Below are positions 2,393 through 61,638 of a stretch of 64,000 bases of DNA, in pieces. The position numbers were made by a program, and so were the translations under genes. The stretch's first letter is position 1, and every line of letters begins with the position of its first letter. Origin of the DNA: Elusimicrobia bacterium RIFOXYA12_FULL_51_18 (GTDB lineage: Bacteria; Elusimicrobiota; Elusimicrobia; Elusimicrobiales; UBA9959); assembly GCA_001800245.1 (NCBI GenBank), contig MGVA01000043.1, forward strand, positions 93,098 through 157,097, given 5' to 3'. The notes under the pieces were generated by a model, which saw only the letters and a list, made by a program, of their open reading frames with translations, ran no database searches and was not told the origin of the DNA.

Positions 2393-3841
2393 TCATCCCT
2401 CTCGCCTAAGCTTTGCAACGATAAAATGCGGATAGAGACGCAGGAAGCGTCCGGTGTGGAAATCTCCGCTAGATCTGCTGAGTACTCTGGCCGCCACACG
2501 GAGGAAGATATCTCCGACCGGCAGCGAGAACAGTCCGGGCCTGTGCGCTAGAAAGCGCCTGAGACTGCGCGGCAGGCGCGGCAACAGCGTTAGCAGTGAG
2601 AAATATGCCGCCTGCCTTCGCCTGGGGAGCTGCGAGTAGCCTGCCGGGCGCATCAGGCCGCCAGGTACGTTATGTTTCCCCGGCCGGGCCGTGGCCAGCG
2701 GGGTGTTTGGATATATGCGCAGAAAAAAAATTTCGTTGTGGTCGGGAGTGTTTTCCGCGTAGAAAGAGGCTAAGGCTGAAAGTTCTTCCTCGCTTTCATC
2801 GGGCAGGTCAAGGATGTTGTCACAGGTGACGTATACTCCCTCCGATCGCAGCGCGTTTATGGCCGCCCCTATGTCGGCGTTCGCCGCGCGCCTGCCCAGC
2901 AGCGTGCGGCGCCGGGCCTCGTCGAAGCGCTGTACTCCAAGCTGAACTTTCATGCACCCGGCGGCAGCCAGCGCAGGCGCCGCTTCAGCCAGGTGGTGGT
3001 CCGGGAACACGTAGCAGGAAAAAGGCAGGCCTATTTTTTTTCGGTAAAGAGGCAGGAATGTGTTTAGCCAGGCATAGTCCGAGTTAAATACTTCGTCGGT
3101 GAAATGTATAAAGTGTGGGTTCCTCTTACTTAGTGTTTCCACAAGTTCGGCCAGCATGTTCTCCGGGGAGCGGCGGCGCAACGGAGGTGTTTTGGAGGCT
3201 GCGTAGAGTTCCCTGTAAACGCTGTTGCAGCAATAGGTGCAGGAGTGTGGGCAGCCGCGTGAAGAGGATGCGAGGTATCCTTCGGAAAAACAGGGGTACG
3301 CTCCGGCGAATAGGTTCTTGTCTGGGAACGGCAGGGAGTTTATATCAGCCGGCGGCGCCGCAGGAGGGCCTTTTAATATCTCACCGTCTTTTTTTCCCCA
3401 GATGCCGGCAGGCAGGCTGCCGCCTGATGCGATGACTTTGGCCAGGGCCGGTAGAGCCAGGTCTCCTTCTCCGAGACATACGAAATCCACGCAGTCCTCC
3501 GCCAGGACGGTTTCAGGCGTTGAGGAAGCGTGTATTCCGCCAAAAACTATTTTAGCCCCCGTTCTTTTTTTTATTTCTCGTGCCATCGAAATGGCCCAGG
3601 GGAAGGTGTCGGTGAACACCGAAAAAGCCACTATGTCCGGCCTGTGCTTTTCAGTCAGGCGCAGAGCCTGTTCCCGAAAACTCAAGAATCCGGCCAGTAT
3701 TGTGGAACGCCAGAATCCGGCCTCGTCGAAAAGGCAGGGGTCTATAACCAGAGCGGTCTCAAAACCTGCCGCTTTGAGCGAAGCTGAAAGGTATTCGATC
3801 CCGAGACTTTCATAACCGTTATGGAGAAAGAGTATCTTCAT
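2393..3841 (-). CDS. B12-binding-domain radical SAM protein
   Basis: N-terminal Rossmann-like 'MKILFLHNGYESLGIEYLSASLKAAGF' (B12-binding type) and radical-SAM cluster 'CPHSCTYCC'. Start chosen at MKILF because its ATG overlaps the upstream stop (ATGA); the ORF track begins 18 codons earlier. Confidence 0.8.
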   Translation of the reverse strand: MKILFLHNGYESLGIEYLSASLKAAGFETALVIDPCLFDEAGFWRSTILAGFLSFREQALRLTEKHRPDIVAFSVFTDTFPWAISMAREIKKRTGAKIVFGGIHASSTPETVLAEDCVDFVCLGEGDLALPALAKVIASGGSLPAGIWGKKDGEILKGPPAAPPADINSLPFPDKNLFAGAYPCFSEGYLASSSRGCPHSCTYCCNSVYRELYAASKTPPLRRRSPENMLAELVETLSKRNPHFIHFTDEVFNSDYAWLNTFLPLYRKKIGLPFSCYVFPDHHLAEAAPALAAAGCMKVQLGVQRFDEARRRTLLGRRAANADIGAAINALRSEGVYVTCDNILDLPDESEEELSALASFYAENTPDHNEIFFLRIYPNTPLATARPGKHNVPGGLMRPAGYSQLPRRRQAAYFSLLTLLPRLPRSLRRFLAHRPGLFSLPVGDIFLRVAARVLSRSSGDFHTGRFLRLYPHFIVAKLRREG

Positions 3842-5172
3842 CCCGCCGGTTTCCCGGCCGCTGAGGCGGCGGCTCTGTCGGCGTCCAGAAGGCATTCTTC
3901 CATGTCGTAGTATGAATGAGCCCCGCTTCTGCCGCAGAGTTCCAGGTTTGCGTAGCGGCCCAAAGCCCCGGTCACCGTGTTAAGAGATTTTTCATAGCCC
4001 AGATACAGGAGAGGGTAGGCGAAAGGCAGCCTTTCCACTTTAAAGTCCAAAAGCTCAGATCCCTTGAATATTTTTATGGCCGAAAGGGCGTTGAACGTTG
4101 CCGCCGCTATGTCCGCATCCGGCTTGCGCCAGGTTTTGTCGTCCTCTTGGCAGAATATTTCCAGGGTAACCGGAAAGAAACCTTCTGGAACCAGGCCGCG
4201 GCTCCAGTTGAGCAGCTCGGATGCCCTGGAAAAGGGGACATCCGGGTCCTGGAAATAGACCCAGTGGTCCTTCAAGGGCGTGCGATTTTTGAGAGCCAGG
4301 AACACTATTATCAGGGAGCGGTAGCGCAGGTCCCGAGCCGCGCAGGCCAATTCGGGGTTGTCCCGGATAAGCGCGGAAAATTCTTTTAACGGGATGGTGG
4401 AAATAAGCTGCCTGAACTTTAAGGTCCCGCGGCATCCGTTTTGTTCAAATTCGAGAGCGGTCAGGCGGCCGCCCTCGGCCGTAAGTTTTAAAGGTATTGC
4501 GCCGGTAAGTATTTCTCCCCGGTCAGTGAGTTTTTTTCGCAGGGCGCCTGTAAGGCTTCCTATGCCGTCCTTCGGGTATAGGAAATGCCCGGCATTTTCC
4601 TTGGCGCCAGAGATGGGCAGGAAGATGTCGAAGAAAAGTTTTTTTAAGTCCAGGCTGCCTATGCGCCTCTCGGCCCAGATGGAGGAGATCTCTTCCGTAG
4701 GAAGGCCCCAGGCTTTTAATGAGTAATCCTTGAAATAGGCGTCATGTATTCGGGGCCCGAAGTTGCGGCCCAGCCAATCCTTGAGCGAGGCCGATTTCTC
4801 GTCCGCTTTCCGGGTGCCGTGCGTTTTGAAGCGCAGGGTTGGGAGGGCGTAAAAGATCCCATTCAGCAGCGTGGGGGGATATTGAAGGAACCGGCCGCGG
4901 GTGTAGATGCTGCTTTTCCTTTTATGGTATAACGTTCGTCCGGCCCCCAGGAGTTTTTCCACACGGCCTTTCACGTCGGCATCCTTGAAATAAAGCCTGT
5001 GGCCGCCCAGGTCGAATTTGAAATTCTTATGGGAAACGGTGGCCGCCAGGCCGCCTTCGCGCTCCGCTTTCTCCAGGATGAAAATTTTTTTCCCGCCTTC
5101 TTTAAGCCGGTCGGCGGCCGCCAGGCCGCTTAATCCCGCGCCGAGAATGGCGATGTCCGTGTTGATTTCCAT
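3838..5172 (-). CDS. FAD/NAD(P)-binding oxidoreductase (amine-oxidase / protoporphyrinogen-oxidase-like fold)
   Basis: 444-aa ORF with N-terminal dinucleotide-binding motif 'DIAILGAGLSGLAAADRL...ILEK'; translationally coupled to the B12-rSAM gene. Confidence 0.75.
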   Translation of the reverse strand: MEINTDIAILGAGLSGLAAADRLKEGGKKIFILEKAEREGGLAATVSHKNFKFDLGGHRLYFKDADVKGRVEKLLGAGRTLYHKRKSSIYTRGRFLQYPPTLLNGIFYALPTLRFKTHGTRKADEKSASLKDWLGRNFGPRIHDAYFKDYSLKAWGLPTEEISSIWAERRIGSLDLKKLFFDIFLPISGAKENAGHFLYPKDGIGSLTGALRKKLTDRGEILTGAIPLKLTAEGGRLTALEFEQNGCRGTLKFRQLISTIPLKEFSALIRDNPELACAARDLRYRSLIIVFLALKNRTPLKDHWVYFQDPDVPFSRASELLNWSRGLVPEGFFPVTLEIFCQEDDKTWRKPDADIAAATFNALSAIKIFKGSELLDFKVERLPFAYPLLYLGYEKSLNTVTGALGRYANLELCGRSGAHSYYDMEECLLDADRAAASAAGKPAG

Positions 5173-28992: not shown

Positions 28993-30399
28993 ATGACTCA
29001 GCCTCGCAAAACACTCAATAAACTGCTGAAACCTTCACAGGCTATTCATGCGCTTCATCCGGAGGTTCCGAAGAACGAGGTTATCCACGCGTTGCGTGAG
29101 CGCGTCAAGGAATTGACGGCGCTTCACTCCACGGTATGCGTGCTGCAGGATGACAATCTTTCGACAAAAGAGGTGCTTGACCGCATAGTCAAGCTTATCC
29201 CGCCGGCATGGCAGTACCCGGAAATTACCTCGGGGCGCATAATCGTCGGAGACTGTGAAGGCCGGAACCGCGGCTTCAGGCGCACGCGCTGGCTGCAGGC
29301 TTGCGATTTCCGGATAAGTCCGTCCCTCTCCGGCCGTATCGAGGTTTACTACCTTAAAAAAATGCCGAAAGAGGCGGAGGGCCCGTTCCTCGCAGAGGAA
29401 CGCAATCTTATTAATTCCCTGGCCGATATGCTTCGGGTTTATTTTGAGCGCAAGTCGGCTTCGAAGGAATTGCTGGACGCGCACAACGACCTGGAACGGC
29501 GTGTGAAAGACCGCACGGCCGAACTGGAGAAGCTTAACTCCGCCCTGAAAGCCGAGATCAGAGAACGTGAGCTGCGCCAGAAGGAAATACTCTCTTATCA
29601 GGAAAAACTGCGGGGCCTCTCGGCGGAGCTCATTCTGACGGAGGAGCGCGAACGCAGGGAGATAGCCACGGACCTGCACGATATAATAGGCCAGACGCTG
29701 GCCATGGCTAAAATGAAGGCCGGCGCCCTTCGCGGCTACTGCTCCGTCCCTGAAGCGTCTTCCGAACTGAAGAATCTTTCGGGTTTTATAGACGAAGCGA
29801 TACTCGCGAGCCGTAACCTGACTTTCCAGCTGGCTTCTCCCATACTTTACGAGTTGGGCCTTGAGAGCGCGCTTGAACGCCTGGCTGCGGATACGCGCAA
29901 ACGTCAGGGTCTTGCGGTGGATTTTCACGGCGACGGCAGACGCACTTCTTTGCCTACTGAGACCAGTGTTCTGATCTTCAAGGCGGTGCGCGAACTTCTG
30001 ATGAATGCCGTGAAACACTCGAAGGCCTCGGAAGTAAAGGTGAGGATGCGCAGCGGCGGTGGCAAGATAGCTGTAACTGTGCGTGATAACGGCTGCGGTT
30101 TTAACGCCGCGGCGGCTTCGGTCTATGACGGCGATAAGGGGGGCTTCGGGCTTTTCTCCATCAGGGAAAAAGTTTCCCGCCTGGGCGGGGCCTTCCGGCT
30201 GAGTTCGCGCCGGGGTTCGGGCACGCTGGCGGTAATAACGGCGCCTCTGGAGCCTGTCCGACATAAGGCGTTCATGGCGAAACTGCCGATTTTGAAGCCG
30301 AGCCGACGCGACGCGAAACTAGCATCCTCGACTAGAGGATGTAAGTTGAGCGGCGCTAAGGCGCAGGCAAAAAGCGGCAGTTGCAGACGAAATCGCTAA
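28993..30399 (+). CDS. cytoplasmic sensor histidine kinase (HisKA_3 / NarL-partner type)
   Basis: Start at 'MTQPRK'; coiled coil; H-box 'DLHDIIGQTLA'; 'LLMNAVKHS', 'DNGCGF', 'GGFGLFS'. The last 40 or so codons are encoded by a dispersed repeat. Confidence 0.8.
   Translation: MTQPRKTLNKLLKPSQAIHALHPEVPKNEVIHALRERVKELTALHSTVCVLQDDNLSTKEVLDRIVKLIPPAWQYPEITSGRIIVGDCEGRNRGFRRTRWLQACDFRISPSLSGRIEVYYLKKMPKEAEGPFLAEERNLINSLADMLRVYFERKSASKELLDAHNDLERRVKDRTAELEKLNSALKAEIRERELRQKEILSYQEKLRGLSAELILTEERERREIATDLHDIIGQTLAMAKMKAGALRGYCSVPEASSELKNLSGFIDEAILASRNLTFQLASPILYELGLESALERLAADTRKRQGLAVDFHGDGRRTSLPTETSVLIFKAVRELLMNAVKHSKASEVKVRMRSGGGKIAVTVRDNGCGFNAAAASVYDGDKGGFGLFSIREKVSRLGGAFRLSSRRGSGTLAVITAPLEPVRHKAFMAKLPILKPSRRDAKLASSTRGCKLSGAKAQAKSGSCRRNR
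30290..30368 (+). repeat. dispersed repeat copy (modules M1-hairpin-M2) at the HK/RR junction
   Basis: 28-nt block 26/28 identical to the reverse complement of 33870-33897; central hairpin CATCCTC/GAGGATG (30323-30341). Confidence 0.7.
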
Positions 30400-33352: not shown

Positions 33353-33538
33353 ATGAATACCAATAACACAAACAACAACCGGAATAAGAACAAGCAACAG
33401 AATCGGAACAATCAGCAGCCCCAGAACCAACAGCAGAATCAAAACCAGCGGCAGAATCCTAACCAGCAACAGGATCAGGCCCGGCAGCAAAATCAGCCGC
33501 AGCCCCAGCAGCCGAAGAAAAAGTCCTGCTGTTGCTAA
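33353..33538 (+). CDS. Gln/Asn-rich micro-protein ending in SCCC
   Basis: AAAGGAG RBS 6 nt before the ATG; 61 codons dominated by N/Q/R/K; terminator immediately downstream. Confidence 0.45.
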   Translation: MNTNNTNNNRNKNKQQNRNNQQPQNQQQNQNQRQNPNQQQDQARQQNQPQPQQPKKKSCCC

Positions 33539-33560: not shown

Positions 33561-33592
33561 AAAAGGCCCCGCCTATAAAGCGGGGCCTTTTT
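33561..33592. terminator. bidirectional intrinsic terminator
   Basis: GGCCCCGC (33565-33572) / GCGGGGCC (33580-33587), A-run before and T-run after. Confidence 0.7.
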
Positions 33593-33599
33593 CACTTCC

Positions 33600-33930
33600 A
33601 AGTAAACAAAATATAGTGGCGGCTGGTTGGCTTTGGCGCGAGAGCCGCATGATCGCGCAGTCGGGCCGCCGGCGGGTTTTCTGCGCGCTTCGGGACCGGG
33701 TTTATGGGAATGAAAACCGGAGTCTCCCGCCGGCTTCGCAACTCGGGCAAAAGACAAGCCTATGGCAGTGCCGTATCAGGGACTGTGTCTATCAGACGGC
33801 CACCGCACTGCGGTTTCCCCTGCTGCGCCATCGCGCTGCTCAACTTACAGGTTCATTGGAGCCTGTTCGTTTCGCATCGCTTCGGCTCGGCTTCAAAAAA
33901 TAAATTCAGTTTTGGGGTATGTTGACAACC
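33600..33930 (-). ncRNA. longest copy of the modular intergenic repeat family; candidate structured RNA
   Basis: No credible ORF; contains all repeat modules in one array, nested helices (33668-33676 pairs with 33726-33734), and runs into the 33561-33592 terminator on the minus strand. Confidence 0.35.
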
Positions 33931-38523: not shown

Positions 38524-38967
38524 ATGAATATCAGGATTCCTGAACAGAATTATGTTCTGATCGCCGGGCGTCTTACCCGCGATCCGGAACTGCGGTTCAC
38601 CCAGAAAGGGCTGCCCGTATGCAGCTTTGACGTAGCCGTCAACCGGCGCTATAAAGACCAAGCCACCGGCGAATGGAAGGATGACACGACTTATGTGCCG
38701 GTCACCGTCTGGGGCCCGATGGGTGAGAAATGCAAGGAAAGAGTAAAAAAAGGCAGCCCTGTCCATGTGGAAGGGAGATTGTCCAGTTCCGATTACGTGG
38801 ATAAGACCGGCCAGAAACGCAAGGTGATCCGTCTCGTGGCCAAAAGGGTGCAGTTCCTGGCCGTCGCAACGCCCGGAGAAACTTCCGGCGCGCCGGAAAC
38901 CGCCGAGACCGAAGCCGCAACCGACAAGGCCTCGGATTCGTCCGGCATAGAAGAAGTGCCGTTTTAG
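38524..38967 (+). CDS. ssb: single-stranded DNA-binding protein
   Basis: OB-fold 'NYVLIAGRLTRDPELRFT', acidic tail ending 'IEEVPF'. Confidence 0.9.
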   Translation: MNIRIPEQNYVLIAGRLTRDPELRFTQKGLPVCSFDVAVNRRYKDQATGEWKDDTTYVPVTVWGPMGEKCKERVKKGSPVHVEGRLSSSDYVDKTGQKRKVIRLVAKRVQFLAVATPGETSGAPETAETEAATDKASDSSGIEEVPF

Positions 38968-59415: not shown

Positions 59416-60060
59416 TCATTCTTCCAGCCTGGCCCGTATCCTGGGCCTGGCGCCAAGTTCTTTAACCAGAGCGGTAAATTTTTCAAGGTCCACTCCGTTG
59501 TCTTTTATGGCCGTGGCCACGGTTTCGGGAATGACCCGGGCTGCGTCGCGTATAAAGTCAAGCACGCATTTAAAACCTGTTTGCGCATATTCCGGCCTTG
59601 GCCGCATAAGGGTAAGCCATTGCGCGGGATCCGCGGTGTTAAGGCTGACGTGCACGGAGTCTACAAGGTCTTTGAGTTTTGGGACGATGTTTCCCCCGTT
59701 CACGAGCCCGCCCAGGCCGTTGGTATTCAGGCGTACGCGCAGTCCCGCCGGTACAGGGGCCAATGCGCCGCTCTTGACGGCGCCTGCGGCGGCCAGGAGT
59801 ACGTCCAGGCGCATGGTCGGTTCTCCATAGCCGCAAAAAACAAGTTCATCAAAAGGGGCTTGCGTCCACTCCGCCTTTATCAGCGCAAAAAGAGTTTTAG
59901 TGTCCGGCTCCGCGCCGCCCAAATCCAAGTTGCTGCCGCGATAATCCATCTTCCACTTGTTTTTGATGCAGAAAACGCAGGTCGTGGGGCAGCGGTTGGT
60001 AATATTCAAATAAAGGCCCGTGTGATACCTGTAAGCGGCCGCCGGCTTGGTAGCGTTCAT
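59416..60060 (-). CDS. small radical SAM protein (TatD-associated type)
   Basis: 'LYLNITNRCPTTCVFC', 'CGYGEPT'. Start chosen at MNATK (60060); the longer track ORF (to 60159) would read into an inverted-repeat element. Confidence 0.65.
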   Translation of the reverse strand: MNATKPAAAYRYHTGLYLNITNRCPTTCVFCIKNKWKMDYRGSNLDLGGAEPDTKTLFALIKAEWTQAPFDELVFCGYGEPTMRLDVLLAAAGAVKSGALAPVPAGLRVRLNTNGLGGLVNGGNIVPKLKDLVDSVHVSLNTADPAQWLTLMRPRPEYAQTGFKCVLDFIRDAARVIPETVATAIKDNGVDLEKFTALVKELGARPRIRARLEE

Positions 60061-60115
60061 TAAGTTTATTCTATCATTTATGCCCAGTTCGTAAAATGCC
60101 GTCGCCCCGCCAGTA

Positions 60116-60295
60116 CCTCTCCACCCATACCCGCCGGCAAAAAAGAAAAACAGCGGCATATTCTACCGTGCAAGTCTGCTACGGATTTAATAGAATTAAC
60201 CAAAGGGTGTTGTAAGCTGACAGAAGCTGACCAAGTGAAGCCCACTACCGTCCAAAAGTTAATCAGGTGGTTGCCGGCGGGTATCAGTGGAGGGG
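60116..60295. repeat. 25-bp imperfect (14-bp perfect core) inverted repeats flanking 130 nt
   Basis: ATACCCGCCGGCAA (60127-60140) is the exact reverse complement of TTGCCGGCGGGTAT (60271-60284); the arms extend to 22/25 matches. Confidence 0.7.
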
Positions 60296-60462
60296 TGACG
60301 GGTGTCAGGCTTTTTCGACCCCGAAGGTGAGGACTGGCTTTAGAGCGGAACATAATTATGTTCCGCGCCCGGTCCGCAAGGAGGGAACGCGAAAAAGACT
60401 GACCCCGGCAGGACCCCGAACTGGCAGCCGCCGGAGCAAGGAACTCAATAATTCGGATTTAC

Positions 60463-61638
60463 ATGAAAATTTTAATAGCTCCTAATGCGTTTAAAGGCAC
60501 TCTTGGCCCGCTGGCGGCGGGGCGGGCCATAGCGCGCGCGCTTAAGAAGCTCGCGCCAGGCGCGAAGCTTGAGTTATTGCCGGTTTCGGACGGCGGGGAT
60601 GGGCTGTTGGAAACGTTCCTGTTCGAATACAAAGGCCGGGGCCGCAGGGTGCTTTCTGTGCCCGGTCCGCTGTCCAAGCCTGTGCGCGCCCGCTGGGTCA
60701 TGGCCGGGGACACGGCCGTTATAGAGATGGCCGAGGCCGCGGGCTTGAAATACCTTTTAAAAAAAGAGCTTGCGCCTCTTGACGCCACCACTTTCGGCGT
60801 CGGGAAGCTGATCGGGGCCGCGGTTGCGGCCGGAGCGCGTTTGGTGATAGTGGGGCTGGGGGGCAGCGCCTCAAATGACGGTGGGGCGGGTTGCGCTGCG
60901 GGTTTCGGCTTCAGGCTGCTGGATAAGCGCGGCCGCCCGGTGCCTCCCGGCGCCCGAGGACTGCTTAGGCTTGAAAGGATACTTCCGCCGGCTTCTGCGG
61001 CCAGTTTGCCGCGTATCAGGATCATAGCTCTTACCGATGTTGATAATCCGCTGACTGGCCCGCGCGGTTCGGCCCGGGTCTATGGTCCTCAGAAGGGAGC
61101 GGATCCGGCGGATGTCGTAGTTATGGAAAAAGCGTTGCTTCATTACGCCCGCGTAATTAAACGCGAACTTGGCATAGATATAAAGGATCTGAAGGGCGGG
61201 GCGGCGGCGGGAGGACTTGGAGCCGGTCTTTACGCTTTTTTCGGAGCCAGGCTGACCGGAGGTTCTGATTTTGTGCTCAAGCGGATGAATTTTGAGGCCG
61301 CAGTGAAGAGATGCGACCTTGTTATCACCGGCGAAGGCCGTTTCGACGAGCAAAGTTTCAGCGGGAAGGCGCCGTTTATGGTCGCGCGGCTCGCCCGTAG
61401 TTATAAAAAACCGGCGCTTATGGTTTGCGGCTCCTGCGCAGTGGAAGATCTTAGCAGCCTCAAAGGCTGCGGCATAAGCGGGGTAATTGCTTTGGACACG
61501 GTTCTCCCGCTTTCCGAACTTCTCGGTAGCCCCGCTTCGGCTATGACCAAAGGGATTCTGCTTTCCAGTGATATCGTGGCCCGGTTTCTCCAACCCATAA
61601 AACTCCCCCGCCGGTCCGGCGGGCGCCCGTTGAAATAG
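60463..61638 (+). CDS. glxK: glycerate kinase
   Basis: 'MKILIAPNAFKGTL', 'LPVSDGGDG', 'VITGEGRFDEQS'. Confidence 0.9.
   Translation: MKILIAPNAFKGTLGPLAAGRAIARALKKLAPGAKLELLPVSDGGDGLLETFLFEYKGRGRRVLSVPGPLSKPVRARWVMAGDTAVIEMAEAAGLKYLLKKELAPLDATTFGVGKLIGAAVAAGARLVIVGLGGSASNDGGAGCAAGFGFRLLDKRGRPVPPGARGLLRLERILPPASAASLPRIRIIALTDVDNPLTGPRGSARVYGPQKGADPADVVVMEKALLHYARVIKRELGIDIKDLKGGAAAGGLGAGLYAFFGARLTGGSDFVLKRMNFEAAVKRCDLVITGEGRFDEQSFSGKAPFMVARLARSYKKPALMVCGSCAVEDLSSLKGCGISGVIALDTVLPLSELLGSPASAMTKGILLSSDIVARFLQPIKLPRRSGGRPLK

What the first reader, a model, noticed from the sequence alone, without database searches (positions are those of the whole stretch)
60061..60462. 400-nt gene-free region with MITE-like inverted repeats, a 22-bp perfect palindrome and an extended helix set: unidentified structured element upstream of glycerate kinase
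Several features are visible directly.
- A 14-bp perfect inverted repeat, ATACCCGCCGGCAA (60127-60140) with TTGCCGGCGGGTAT (60271-60284). It extends to 22/25 matches (60116-60140 with 60271-60295) and encloses 130 nt that contain direct repeats AAGCTGAC x2 and CTACCGT x2.
- A 22-bp perfect palindrome, GCGGAACATAATTATGTTCCGC (60345-60366).
- A long-range helix GGGGT/CGGG/GTCAG (60292-60308) with CTGAC/CCCG/ACCCC (60399-60417).
- A GNRA-capped hairpin, TCC-GCAA-GGA (60373-60382).
- GCCGGCGG (60273-60280) complementary to CCGCCGG (60430-60436).

The GCCGGCGGG...CCCGGTCC...CCGCCGG order mirrors the 3' half of the 33.6-kb element, so this may be another diverged family member. It could equally be a riboswitch-like leader, a MITE, or an operator (the palindrome) for the glycerate kinase gene.
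Basis: seen in the sequence. Interest (0 to 1): 0.55.

Follow-up and report, generated by a model that had tools for sequence, protein, structure and literature searches.

The report
Interspersed hairpin repeat bracketing empty slot
The gene-free stretch upstream of glycerate kinase holds one intact and one broken copy of an uncatalogued, tightly folded 115-173-base repeat that is scattered through the genomes of a small group of groundwater Elusimicrobia and often brackets strain-specific accessory genes; here the bracket is empty, so this is repeat-element DNA rather than a switch dedicated to glycerate kinase.

Summary
The region is truly gene-free, because the radical SAM gene starts at 60060.

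The helices belong to a repeat I call M:
- Window 60273-60435 (+) is an intact copy of M, a discrete hairpin element (covariance model 110 bits, E 1e-20).
- 60097-60138 (-) is the first ~42 nt of a second, inverted and truncated copy. This explains the 26-bp inverted repeat.
- The 22-bp palindrome is the tip of a 53-nt strain-specific insertion in M's apical loop.

M occurs in at least 25 other intergenic places in contigs of related Elusimicrobia, next to unrelated housekeeping genes. It comes in three size types. Its fold is supported by compensatory changes (20 of 39 pairs). Its ends are sharp, with no target-site duplication. No Rfam, plasmid or phage match was found.

In close relatives the same locus holds two inverted M copies around different cargo genes. 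The window has the empty version. M is absent upstream of glycerate kinase in more distant relatives.

Best reading: a new family of non-autonomous, hairpin-forming interspersed repeats that works like REPIN, Correia or MITE/MIC elements. M may also be transcribed. It is not a riboswitch, an operator or kin of the 33.6-kb element.

The parts
59416..60060 (-). Radical SAM gene (214 aa). Its true start is the ATG at 60060, which makes this the left border of the gene-free region.
   Evidence: Pfam Radical_SAM. Homologues are 214-215 aa. NCBI annotation of the same genome gives 214 aa.
60066..60095 (-). Conserved sigma-70-like promoter of the radical SAM gene (TTTACG-16-TGATAGAAT). Its -10 box ends about 7 nt before the ATG, so the mRNA may be leaderless. 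It is not part of the repeat.
   Evidence: Promoter scan. The motif TTATTCTATCATTTA is invariant in L001, L002, L003, L084, L085 and L163.
60097..60138 (-). Truncated, inverted M copy. On the - strand it holds only the first ~42 nt of M (GCCGGCGGGTATGGGTGGAGAGGTACTGGCGGGGCGACGGC). The outer left arm present in relatives has been deleted.
   Evidence: win_-60138. Alignment A2 with the full left copies of L084 and L085. It most resembles the L085-/L097 subtype.
60141..60264 (.). Interior segment between the two M copies. It is shared with L084, L085 and an unrelated locus, L148. It holds two opposed TAGAAT boxes (60160-60165 on the - strand, 60191-60196 on the + strand) and the short direct repeats. 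In relatives the cargo gene follows it; here no cargo is present.
   Evidence: BLAST map, alignment A2, L148 match. Promoter function is inferred only.
60273..60435 (+). Intact M element (type A with an apical insertion). P1 is 60274-60280 / 60428-60434 (60273 G faces 60435 A). A short helix is 60286-60288 / 60420-60422. P2 is 60292-60296 / 60413-60417. P3 is 60299-60317 / 60390-60407.
   Evidence: Covariance model R1: 110.1 bits, E 1.1e-20, full length. MFE -90.3 kcal/mol, z -7.3. Family covariation.
60328..60380 (+). 53-nt strain-specific insertion in the apical loop of P3, replacing the family's CGGCC. It forms its own hairpin (GGACTGG 60331-60337 with CCGGTCC 60369-60375), tipped by the perfect 22-bp palindrome at 60345-60366.
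   Evidence: Alignment A3 against L084. Model alignment shows 55 inserted nt where the model has 7. Found only in assemblies of this strain. MFE.
60436..60449 (+). Conserved 3' tail of the repeat. The window reads (A)GCAAGGAACTCAAT; the family consensus is RTMAGGAACTCAAT. About half of the copies carry it. The glycerate kinase ATG at 60463 lies 13 nt after its end.
   Evidence: Downstream flanks of 28 copies.
60463..61638 (+). Glycerate kinase gene, the right border. It is not functionally tied to the repeat.
   Evidence: Pfam Gly_kinase 2.4e-114. Relatives lack M upstream of this gene.

Best explanation
**What the region is.** The gene-free region is built from a lineage-restricted, multi-copy, hairpin-forming interspersed repeat that I call M.

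**Anatomy of M.** M is a discrete unit with sharp ends:
- An 8-bp closing helix, GCCGGCGG / CCGCCGGC.
- An internal loop with invariant sequence on both strands and two hypervariable dinucleotides: GUAUnnGUGGAG on one side, GAACnnGCAG on the other.
- A 5-bp helix, GGGGU / ACCCC.
- A 3-nt bulge.
- A long, freely varying hairpin, which gives three size types of about 115, 135 and 171-173 nt.
- A purine-rich CCGAGG(A)GGAAC motif in the apical region.

**What the window holds.** It holds one intact M on the + strand and the first ~42 nt of a second, inverted copy.

**The same locus in relatives.** Two complete inverted M copies, with their 5' sides facing inward, bracket a promoter-like segment plus a different accessory gene in each strain. 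The window holds the empty, partly deleted version of that bracket.

**Steps that are shown:**
- Membership of the family.
- Multi-copy dispersal next to unrelated genes.
- Presence or absence at the orthologous locus.
- Sharp ends.
- A fold maintained by compensatory change.
- The bracket arrangement.

**Steps that are inferred:**
- M is a non-autonomous element, copied or moved in trans by an unidentified enzyme that recognises the folded single strand. This would resemble REPINs moved by RAYT transposases.
- Copies are homogenised by gene conversion.
- Paired copies act as recombination substrates that let accessory genes be swapped or lost.
- M probably has side effects as an RNA hairpin in neighbouring transcripts. 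Here it would sit in the glycerate kinase leader.
For: **Family and dispersal**
- An exact-pattern scan of metagenomes with 18 specified bases of the arm gave 75 loci. About 25 of them share the whole module.
- The covariance model R1 finds these copies at 50-143 bits.
- Several copies lie on one contig: three in 11 kb of L151, and types A and C together in L094.
- Neighbouring genes are unrelated housekeeping genes.

**Restricted lineage and polymorphism**
- No hit was found in 80 glycerate-kinase loci of GTDB genomes, nor in L163 and L164, whose glycerate kinase is 72% identical.
- L165 (79% identical) carries a collapsed remnant.

**Discrete unit**
- Between L085 and L088, which are different loci, the cargo ORF is 81% identical and the spacer is unrelated.
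- M itself is 98.3% identical over exactly 173 nt, from GCCGGCGG to CCGCCGGCAT.

**Fold**
- 95.9% of cells are paired and 20 of 39 pairs show changes on both sides. None of 500 shuffles reaches this, and slid controls give 31-53% paired.
- An unfitted MAFFT alignment of type A already shows 3 compensatory pairs.
- Single-sequence folds of types A, B and C give the same architecture, with z between -5.5 and -6.4.

**Bracket arrangement**
- Inward-facing inverted pairs occur at the window locus (window, L084, L085) and in L088, L094, L111, L151 and L152. Against these there is one direct pair and one outward-facing pair.
- Cargo differs between pairs: a weak HEPN-like match, DUF5677-like (twice), a hydrolase, DUF429, a PAS histidine kinase and a TPR lipoprotein.
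- At the window locus the left and right copies are of different subtypes in three related strains, which suggests exchange among copies.

**Not already catalogued**
- No Rfam match in the window or in 8 loci.
- No match in plasmids or phages.
Against: - No transposase or recombinase was found among about 40 flanking or cargo ORFs scanned. The only recurring cargo is the DUF5677-like gene.
- There is no target-site duplication: 0 of 25 copies have a flanking direct repeat of 3 nt or more.
- Only one copy lies in about 84 kb of the window's own genome.
- Three features look more like a functional RNA than like junk. Unpaired loop sequences are invariant. The M strand consistently folds better than its complement. 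A conserved upstream promoter-like module exists (see the first rival).
- The compensatory-change counts come mostly from an alignment fitted to the model.
Confidence: 0.7

Rival explanations
1. M is primarily a small structured RNA gene or cis-acting RNA module that has been duplicated. It would be transcribed from its own promoter in the M orientation (the + strand in the window). It would work through its invariant loops, for example by binding a protein. It carries three AGGA/GGA-type motifs: in the apical loop, in the 3' bulge region and in the tail.
For: - The M strand folds 7-10 kcal/mol better than its complement in all four cases tested: -72.8 vs -64.6, -92.1 vs -85.0, -105.9 vs -97.1, and -90.3 vs -80.6.
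- G-U pairs outnumber A-C cells 31 to 12 in the M orientation.
- Long unpaired stretches are invariant across the three types.
- A conserved module of about 90 nt lies 5' of at least 11 copies (alignment A7).
- In L151 that module scores as a sigma-70-like promoter, TGAACA-17-TATATT, pointing into M on both sides of the bracket.
Against: - The window copy lacks that upstream module.
- No terminator follows M consistently.
- Copy number, presence/absence polymorphism and 98% identity between non-orthologous copies with a freely varying P3 point to DNA-level spread.
- No expression data are available.
- The strand bias is modest and the copies are not independent.
- This reading does not exclude mobility.
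Confidence: 0.25
2. The 26-bp inverted repeat marks an invertible promoter switch (an inverton). A site-specific recombinase would flip the 130-nt interior, which carries opposed TAGAAT boxes, and so toggle expression of glycerate kinase or the radical SAM gene.
For: - 26-bp inverted repeats flank 130 nt.
- The interior holds two opposed -10-like TAGAAT boxes.
Against: - Five independent assemblies from several samples carry the identical orientation.
- The arms are simply the ends of two copies of a dispersed repeat, and in relatives they enclose 0.9-1.3 kb with a gene.
- No recombinase gene lies nearby.
Confidence: 0.04
3. The 22-bp perfect palindrome is an operator for a dimeric transcription factor that controls glycerate kinase. 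A second site would lie at the start of ssb.
For: - The 22-bp palindrome is perfect.
- One 18-mer with 3 mismatches lies at 38541-38558, inside the first codons of ssb. No such match appeared in 100 shuffles, and my estimate of the chance expectation is about 0.02-0.04.
Against: - The palindrome lies in a 53-nt insertion that is absent from the orthologous M copy of the relative with 94% identical glycerate kinase, and from all other loci fetched.
- It sits at the tip of a hairpin nested in M's apical loop. Other copies carry unrelated hairpin insertions at that position, as in L145 and L152.
- It lies about 100 nt upstream of the ATG, inside a repeat element.
Confidence: 0.04
4. The region is a riboswitch or other dedicated structured 5' leader of the glycerate kinase mRNA.
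For: - The element lies directly upstream of glycerate kinase on the coding strand and folds strongly.
Against: - It is absent upstream of glycerate kinase in 80 genome loci and in relatives at 64-72% identity.
- The same element lies next to many unrelated genes, in both orientations.
- No Rfam match was found.
Confidence: 0.02

Closest known systems
REPINs / REP sequences mobilised by RAYT transposases (PMC3337134, PMC3116915)
   Same: Both are extragenic, multi-copy and lineage-restricted. Both form hairpins and have no coding capacity and no target-site duplication. In both, inverted copies can flank a gene. The proposed mode of movement, a folded single strand handled by an enzyme supplied in trans, is the same.
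   Different: - M is 115-173 nt with a complex fold (three helices and conserved asymmetric loops). A REPIN is a doublet of 20-40-bp REPs.
- M has no GTAG or CGTC end tag (PMC3733652).
- No RAYT or Y1 transposase was found in any sequence fetched.
- The genes bracketed by M are ordinary accessory genes, not a RAYT.
Correia repeat-enclosed elements of Neisseria (PMC2649163)
   Same: Both are intergenic elements of about 100-160 bp with terminal inverted repeats, present in many copies and variable between strains. According to that paper's abstract, Correia elements can supply promoters at their ends and form RNA structures acted on by RNase III, so they alter expression of neighbouring genes.
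   Different: - The sequence and host phylum are unrelated.
- Correia elements have 26-bp terminal repeats and a TA duplication (from my own knowledge). M shows no duplication.
- M is a nearly complete hairpin with a modular variable stem.
MITEs and mobile insertion cassettes (elements with IS-type ends but no transposase; PMC10969869, PMC2229807; the cassette concept is from my own knowledge)
   Same: Both are small, non-coding and dispersed, with terminal inverted repeats and no transposase of their own. The M'-cargo-M arrangement resembles a mobile insertion cassette, and the window's cargo-less version resembles a MITE.
   Different: - No target-site duplication is present.
- No parent insertion sequence with the same ends was found.
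- The 'terminal repeat' of the bracket is a whole 115-173-nt structured element, and that element also occurs singly.
ERIC/IRU and similar imperfect palindromes of enterobacteria (from my own knowledge)
   Same: Both are imperfect palindromes of about 120 nt in transcribed intergenic regions, with variable presence and internal insertions at fixed sites.
   Different: The sequence is unrelated. M has several subtypes, a bracket arrangement and a possible promoter module of its own.
Integron attC sites
   Same: Both are structured recombination-site-like repeats with a conserved base and a variable centre, found next to variable accessory genes.
   Different: - M pairs are inverted around the cargo, not in direct arrays.
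- The RYYYAAC / GTTRRRY core is absent on inspection.
- No integrase lies nearby.

Membership tests
MITE | Small (under about 500 bp) and non-coding | tested here: met
   Copies are 115-173 nt.
MITE | Multi-copy and dispersed | tested here: met
   At least 25 places, nearly all intergenic, next to unrelated genes.
MITE | Terminal inverted repeats | tested here: met
   The ends GCCGGCGG / CCGCCGGC are invariant.
MITE | Target-site duplication flanking each copy | tested here: not met
   0 of 25 copies have a direct repeat of 3 nt or more at the core ends. 3 of 25 have 2 nt, which is about chance.
MITE | A parent insertion sequence with the same ends and a transposase | tested here: inconclusive
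   None was found among about 40 ORFs near copies. Whole genomes and ISfinder could not be searched.
REPIN / REP-RAYT | REP units of 20-40 bp with a GTAG or CGTC tag, arranged as inverted doublets | tested here: not met
   M is one long composite hairpin and no such tag lies at its ends. The tag definition comes from the abstract of PMC3733652.
REPIN / REP-RAYT | A cognate single-copy RAYT (Y1 transposase) gene flanked by the repeats | tested here: inconclusive
   The bracketed genes are not transposases. The complete genomes were not available.
Rfam RNA families (riboswitches, ribozymes, 6S, omega-RNA/HEARO and others) | A score at or near a family's gathering threshold | tested here: not met
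   Nothing was found in the window beyond one tRNA elsewhere. In the region itself only E > 2 noise appears. Nothing relevant was found in 8 loci with canonical copies.
Cis-regulatory leader or riboswitch of glycerate kinase | Conserved association with the regulated gene across relatives | tested here: not met
   Absent upstream of glycerate kinase in 80 genome loci and in L001, L003, L163 and L164. Present next to unrelated genes.
Integron attC / cassette array | Direct arrays of sites with the RYYYAAC...GTTRRRY core, next to an integrase | tested here: not met
   Pairs are inverted. The core motifs are absent on inspection of the consensus. No integrase was found in the loci scanned.
IS200/IS605-type palindrome-associated elements | Left- and right-end hairpins on the same strand, with tnpA or tnpB nearby | tested here: not met
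   The brackets are inverted copies. No TnpA or TnpB domains were found among the ORFs scanned.
Mobile insertion cassette | Inverted element ends bracketing passenger genes, with no transposase | tested here: met
   Six independent loci carry inward-facing pairs around accessory genes. Movement of a whole bracket as a unit has not been shown. Only M and the DUF5677-like ORF recur, and they recur separately.

The most novel reading that the evidence does not exclude
M, together with its conserved upstream promoter-like module, is the nucleic-acid component of an unrecognised cassette system. Structured RNAs, or folded single-stranded DNA ends, would be transcribed or exposed outward from both ends of small accessory-gene islets. 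A recombinase encoded elsewhere would recognise the invariant loops, with the two hypervariable dinucleotides acting as specificity positions, and would insert, excise or swap the bracketed genes. This would be a third kind of structured-site gene-cassette mechanism beside integron attC sites and the hairpin ends of IS200/IS605 and REP elements.
Probability: 0.08. Interest if true: 0.8.

Novelty: new member of a known kind. Interest (0 to 1): 0.4.

Why it matters
- **Annotation.** The result explains an odd 400-nt structured gap and stops it being annotated as a riboswitch or operator.
- **A new repeat family.** It defines, with a working covariance model and clear boundaries, an interspersed structured repeat in uncultivated groundwater Elusimicrobia. 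I found no description of interspersed repeats in this phylum in Rfam or in one full-text literature search.
- **Possible uses of the family:**
  - a marker for strain typing and for assembly breaks in these MAGs;
  - a pointer to small strain-variable gene slots, including HEPN-like and DUF5677-like genes;
  - a candidate for a transcribed, protein-binding RNA.
- **If a partner enzyme is found.** It would show how a repeat with no target-site duplication and no recognisable transposase spreads.
- **As it stands.** This is an ordinary kind of bacterial genome feature, in a new family and a new phylum.

Tried and rejected
- **Rfam.** Gathering and E-value modes on the window and on 8 loci with canonical copies found nothing.
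- **Kinship with the 33.6-kb element.** BLAST found nothing, and the family model gave 14.7 bits, E = 1.
- **Orthologous conservation.** BLAST and nhmmer of the region against 80 glycerate-kinase loci found no homology.
- **Coding potential.** The ORFs in the region (91 aa on the - strand, 72 aa on the + strand) overlap a repeat whose variation is compensatory in helices. I did not pursue them.
- **Replication origin.** GC skew is monotonic across the window, so this was rejected.
- **Plasmid and phage collections, and IMG/VR.** No true match; the single viral hit was chance.
- **Target-site duplications.** None found.
- **Origin of the palindrome insertion.** Its similarity to the type-C inner stem (GCGGAAC...GTTCCGC) was reached by 21 of 500 shuffles, so it is not convincing.
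- **Inverted isoform of the interior.** Not present in 5 assemblies.
- **Hypervariable dinucleotides.** By eye they show no link to each other or to the flanking bases.
- **M as an intrinsic terminator.** No U-tract follows it on either strand.

Full report
**Observation.** The region 60061-60462 lies between a radical SAM gene on the - strand and glycerate kinase on the + strand.

The radical SAM gene starts at 60060, not 60159:
- Homologues are 214-215 aa.
- NCBI's annotation of this same genome (GCA_001800375.1) aa.
- A conserved promoter-like motif, TTATTCTATCATTTA, sits right next to the ATG in six relatives.

So the 402 nt are truly gene-free.

Only the CCGCCGG coordinates are 2 nt off; the true position is 60428-60434. 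The region folds far better than shuffles on both strands, with z about -5.4. Rfam finds nothing. No second copy exists in the 64-kb window.

**Comparison with relatives.** The organism is an uncultivated Elusimicrobia bacterium.
- In relatives whose glycerate kinase is 64-72% identical, the same two genes are 77-200 nt apart and nothing resembles the element.
- Closer relatives were reached through the protein database. They enclose a shared promoter-like segment plus a gene.
- That gene differs between the strains: a 313-aa ORF with a weak HEPN match in L084, and a 217-aa ORF with a weak DUF5677 match in L085.
- Both relatives also have an outer left arm, CGCCGGCGGCTGCC.GTTCGG, that pairs with window 60413-60434. 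The window has lost it.
- L084 lacks the 53 nt that carry the 22-bp palindrome.

**A repeat family.** I scanned metagenome contigs for CTCCACNNATACCCGCCGGC. This returned 75 loci, and about 25 share the whole module rather than just the pattern.

The module, which I call M, runs exactly from GCCGGCGG to CCGCCGGC. It comes in three size types: about 115 nt, about 135 nt and 171-173 nt.

A covariance model built from 11 type-A copies, none of them from the window, gave these results:
- Window 60273-60435 (+) scores 110.1 bits, E 1.1e-20.
- The other copies score 50-143 bits.
- Nothing was found in 80 glycerate-kinase loci of other Elusimicrobia and other phyla.
- Nothing else was found in about 84 kb of the window's own genome.

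Several copies can lie on one contig, and types A and C co-occur. Their neighbours are unrelated genes: PolA, PBP1A, an ABC-F ATPase, a polyamine operon and threonine synthase.

L165 carries a collapsed remnant, GTCGGCGGGAT|CCCGAACTGGCAGCCGCCGGC.

**Structure.** RNAalifold on an unfitted alignment of type A, and single-sequence folds of types A, B, C and the window copy, all give the same architecture:
- P1: GCCGGCGG / CCGCCGGC.
- A conserved internal loop: GUAUnnGUGGAG opposite GAACnnGCAG.
- P2: GGGGU / ACCCC.
- A 3-nt bulge.
- A long variable P3.

On 23 copies, 95.9% of cells pair and 20 of 39 pairs show changes on both sides. None of 500 shuffles reaches this, and slid controls give 31-53% paired. 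One caveat applies: that alignment was fitted to the model.

P2 also covaries between types: GGGGU/ACCCC in one, CGGGU/ACCCG in another.

- The long-range helix is P2 plus P3.
- The GCCGGCGG/CCGCCGG pair is P1.
- The 26-bp inverted repeat is the 5' end of M paired with the same segment of a truncated inverted copy at 60097-60138.
- The palindrome is the tip of a nested hairpin in a 53-nt apical insertion (60328-60380), found only in this strain.
- The GCAA hairpin lies inside that insertion and is out-competed by the GGACUGG/CCGGUCC pairing.

**Evidence for spread at the DNA level.** L085 and L088 are different loci in different samples.
- The DUF5677-like ORF is 81% identical between them.
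- The spacer after it is unrelated.
- M is 98.3% identical over exactly 173 nt.

Because P3 is otherwise free to vary, this points to recent copying or gene conversion of a discrete unit.

No target-site duplication flanks the core. No transposase or recombinase appears among about 40 neighbouring ORFs, and no recurrent unknown protein either. Plasmid, phage and viral collections hold no copy.

**Bracket arrangement.** Inverted pairs with the 5' sides facing inward occur at six independent loci: the window locus, L088, L094, L111, L151 and L152. Against these there is one direct pair and one outward-facing pair. If orientation were random, that excess would be unlikely (my estimate, about 4e-3).

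The enclosed genes are accessory-type and differ between close strains. At the window locus, the left and right copies belong to different subtypes in the three strains. This fits exchange among copies. Single copies also occur, in either orientation relative to the flanking genes.

**Hints of an RNA role.**
- The M strand folds 7-10 kcal/mol better than its complement in all four cases tested.
- G-U pairs outnumber A-C cells 31 to 12.
- Long unpaired stretches are invariant.
- At least 11 copies carry a conserved module of about 90 nt on their 5' side. In L151 this module scores as TGAACA-17-TATATT pointing into M on both sides of the bracket.

The window copy lacks that module. If it is transcribed at all, it would be transcribed as part of the glycerate kinase leader.

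**Verdict.** It is explained by a new family of hairpin-forming interspersed repeats that brackets a strain-variable gene slot, which is empty in this genome.

M works like REPINs, Correia elements and MITEs or mobile insertion cassettes (PMC3337134, PMC3116915, PMC2649163, PMC10969869). It cannot be filed as a member of any of them:
- It has no target-site duplication.
- It has no REP tag.
- It has no known partner transposase.

How it moves, and whether the RNA has a function, remain inferences. The riboswitch and operator readings and the proposed kinship with the 33.6-kb element are not supported; the inverton reading was only weakly tested, and nothing favours it.

Noticed in passing
window 33354-33538 (+), with a hairpin at 33565-33592: A 61-aa ORF that is extremely rich in Q and N (MNTNNTNNNRNKNKQQNRNNQQ...KKKSCCC). 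It ends in three cysteines and is followed by a terminator-like hairpin.
   Followed up: no
window 30290-30329 and 33859-33898; also L109 6985-7149: A 40-nt inverted repeat (85% complementary) brackets about 3.5 kb. A longer stretch overlapping its right arm, window 33823-33898, is 96% identical to a sequence in the unrelated contig L109. This points to a second repeated sequence in this lineage, distinct from M.
   Followed up: partly
window 33668-33734: The hairpin GCCGGCGGG...CCCGCCGGC shares only the closing helix with M (14.7 bits, E = 1). It is not a family member at this sensitivity.
   Followed up: partly
window 38541-38558: TGAACAGAATTATGTTCT differs by 3 mismatches from the core of the 22-bp palindrome. 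It lies within the first codons of the ssb gene. No such match appeared in 100 shuffles, and my estimate of the chance expectation is about 0.02-0.04.
   Followed up: partly
window 60061-60095, with the same place in L002, L003, L084, L085 and L163: The radical SAM gene has a conserved extended -10 box (TGATAGAAT) ending only about 7 nt before its ATG. This suggests a leaderless or nearly leaderless mRNA.
   Followed up: partly
L170 781-9089 (the 10 kb upstream of the window start) and window 2393-3895: A run of paralogous B12-binding radical SAM genes, with a methyltransferase, lies just outside and at the start of the window.
   Followed up: no
L084 1394-1587 and 2755-2959; L151 4273-4497, 5090-5315 and 8353-8576; and others: A conserved module of about 90 nt lies on the 5' side of at least 11 M copies. 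Its consensus is TGGC.GCGACC..GGG.GGGT.ATTA.GC.GTATCATGAA.AGGGCGGGG..TATTTATATTTTA. It is a possible promoter or protein-binding module, and the window copy lacks it.
   Followed up: partly
L085 2088-2741 and L088 6520-7200: A DUF5677-like gene (81% identical at protein level) recurs at two unrelated loci. Each copy is followed by a type-C M element, and the two M elements are 98% identical to each other.
   Followed up: partly
L002 1712-2695 (-): In the relative with 68% identical glycerate kinase, the same radical SAM-glycerate kinase gap holds a trypsin-like peptidase gene and no M element. The gap is therefore a variable slot even outside the clade that carries M.
   Followed up: partly
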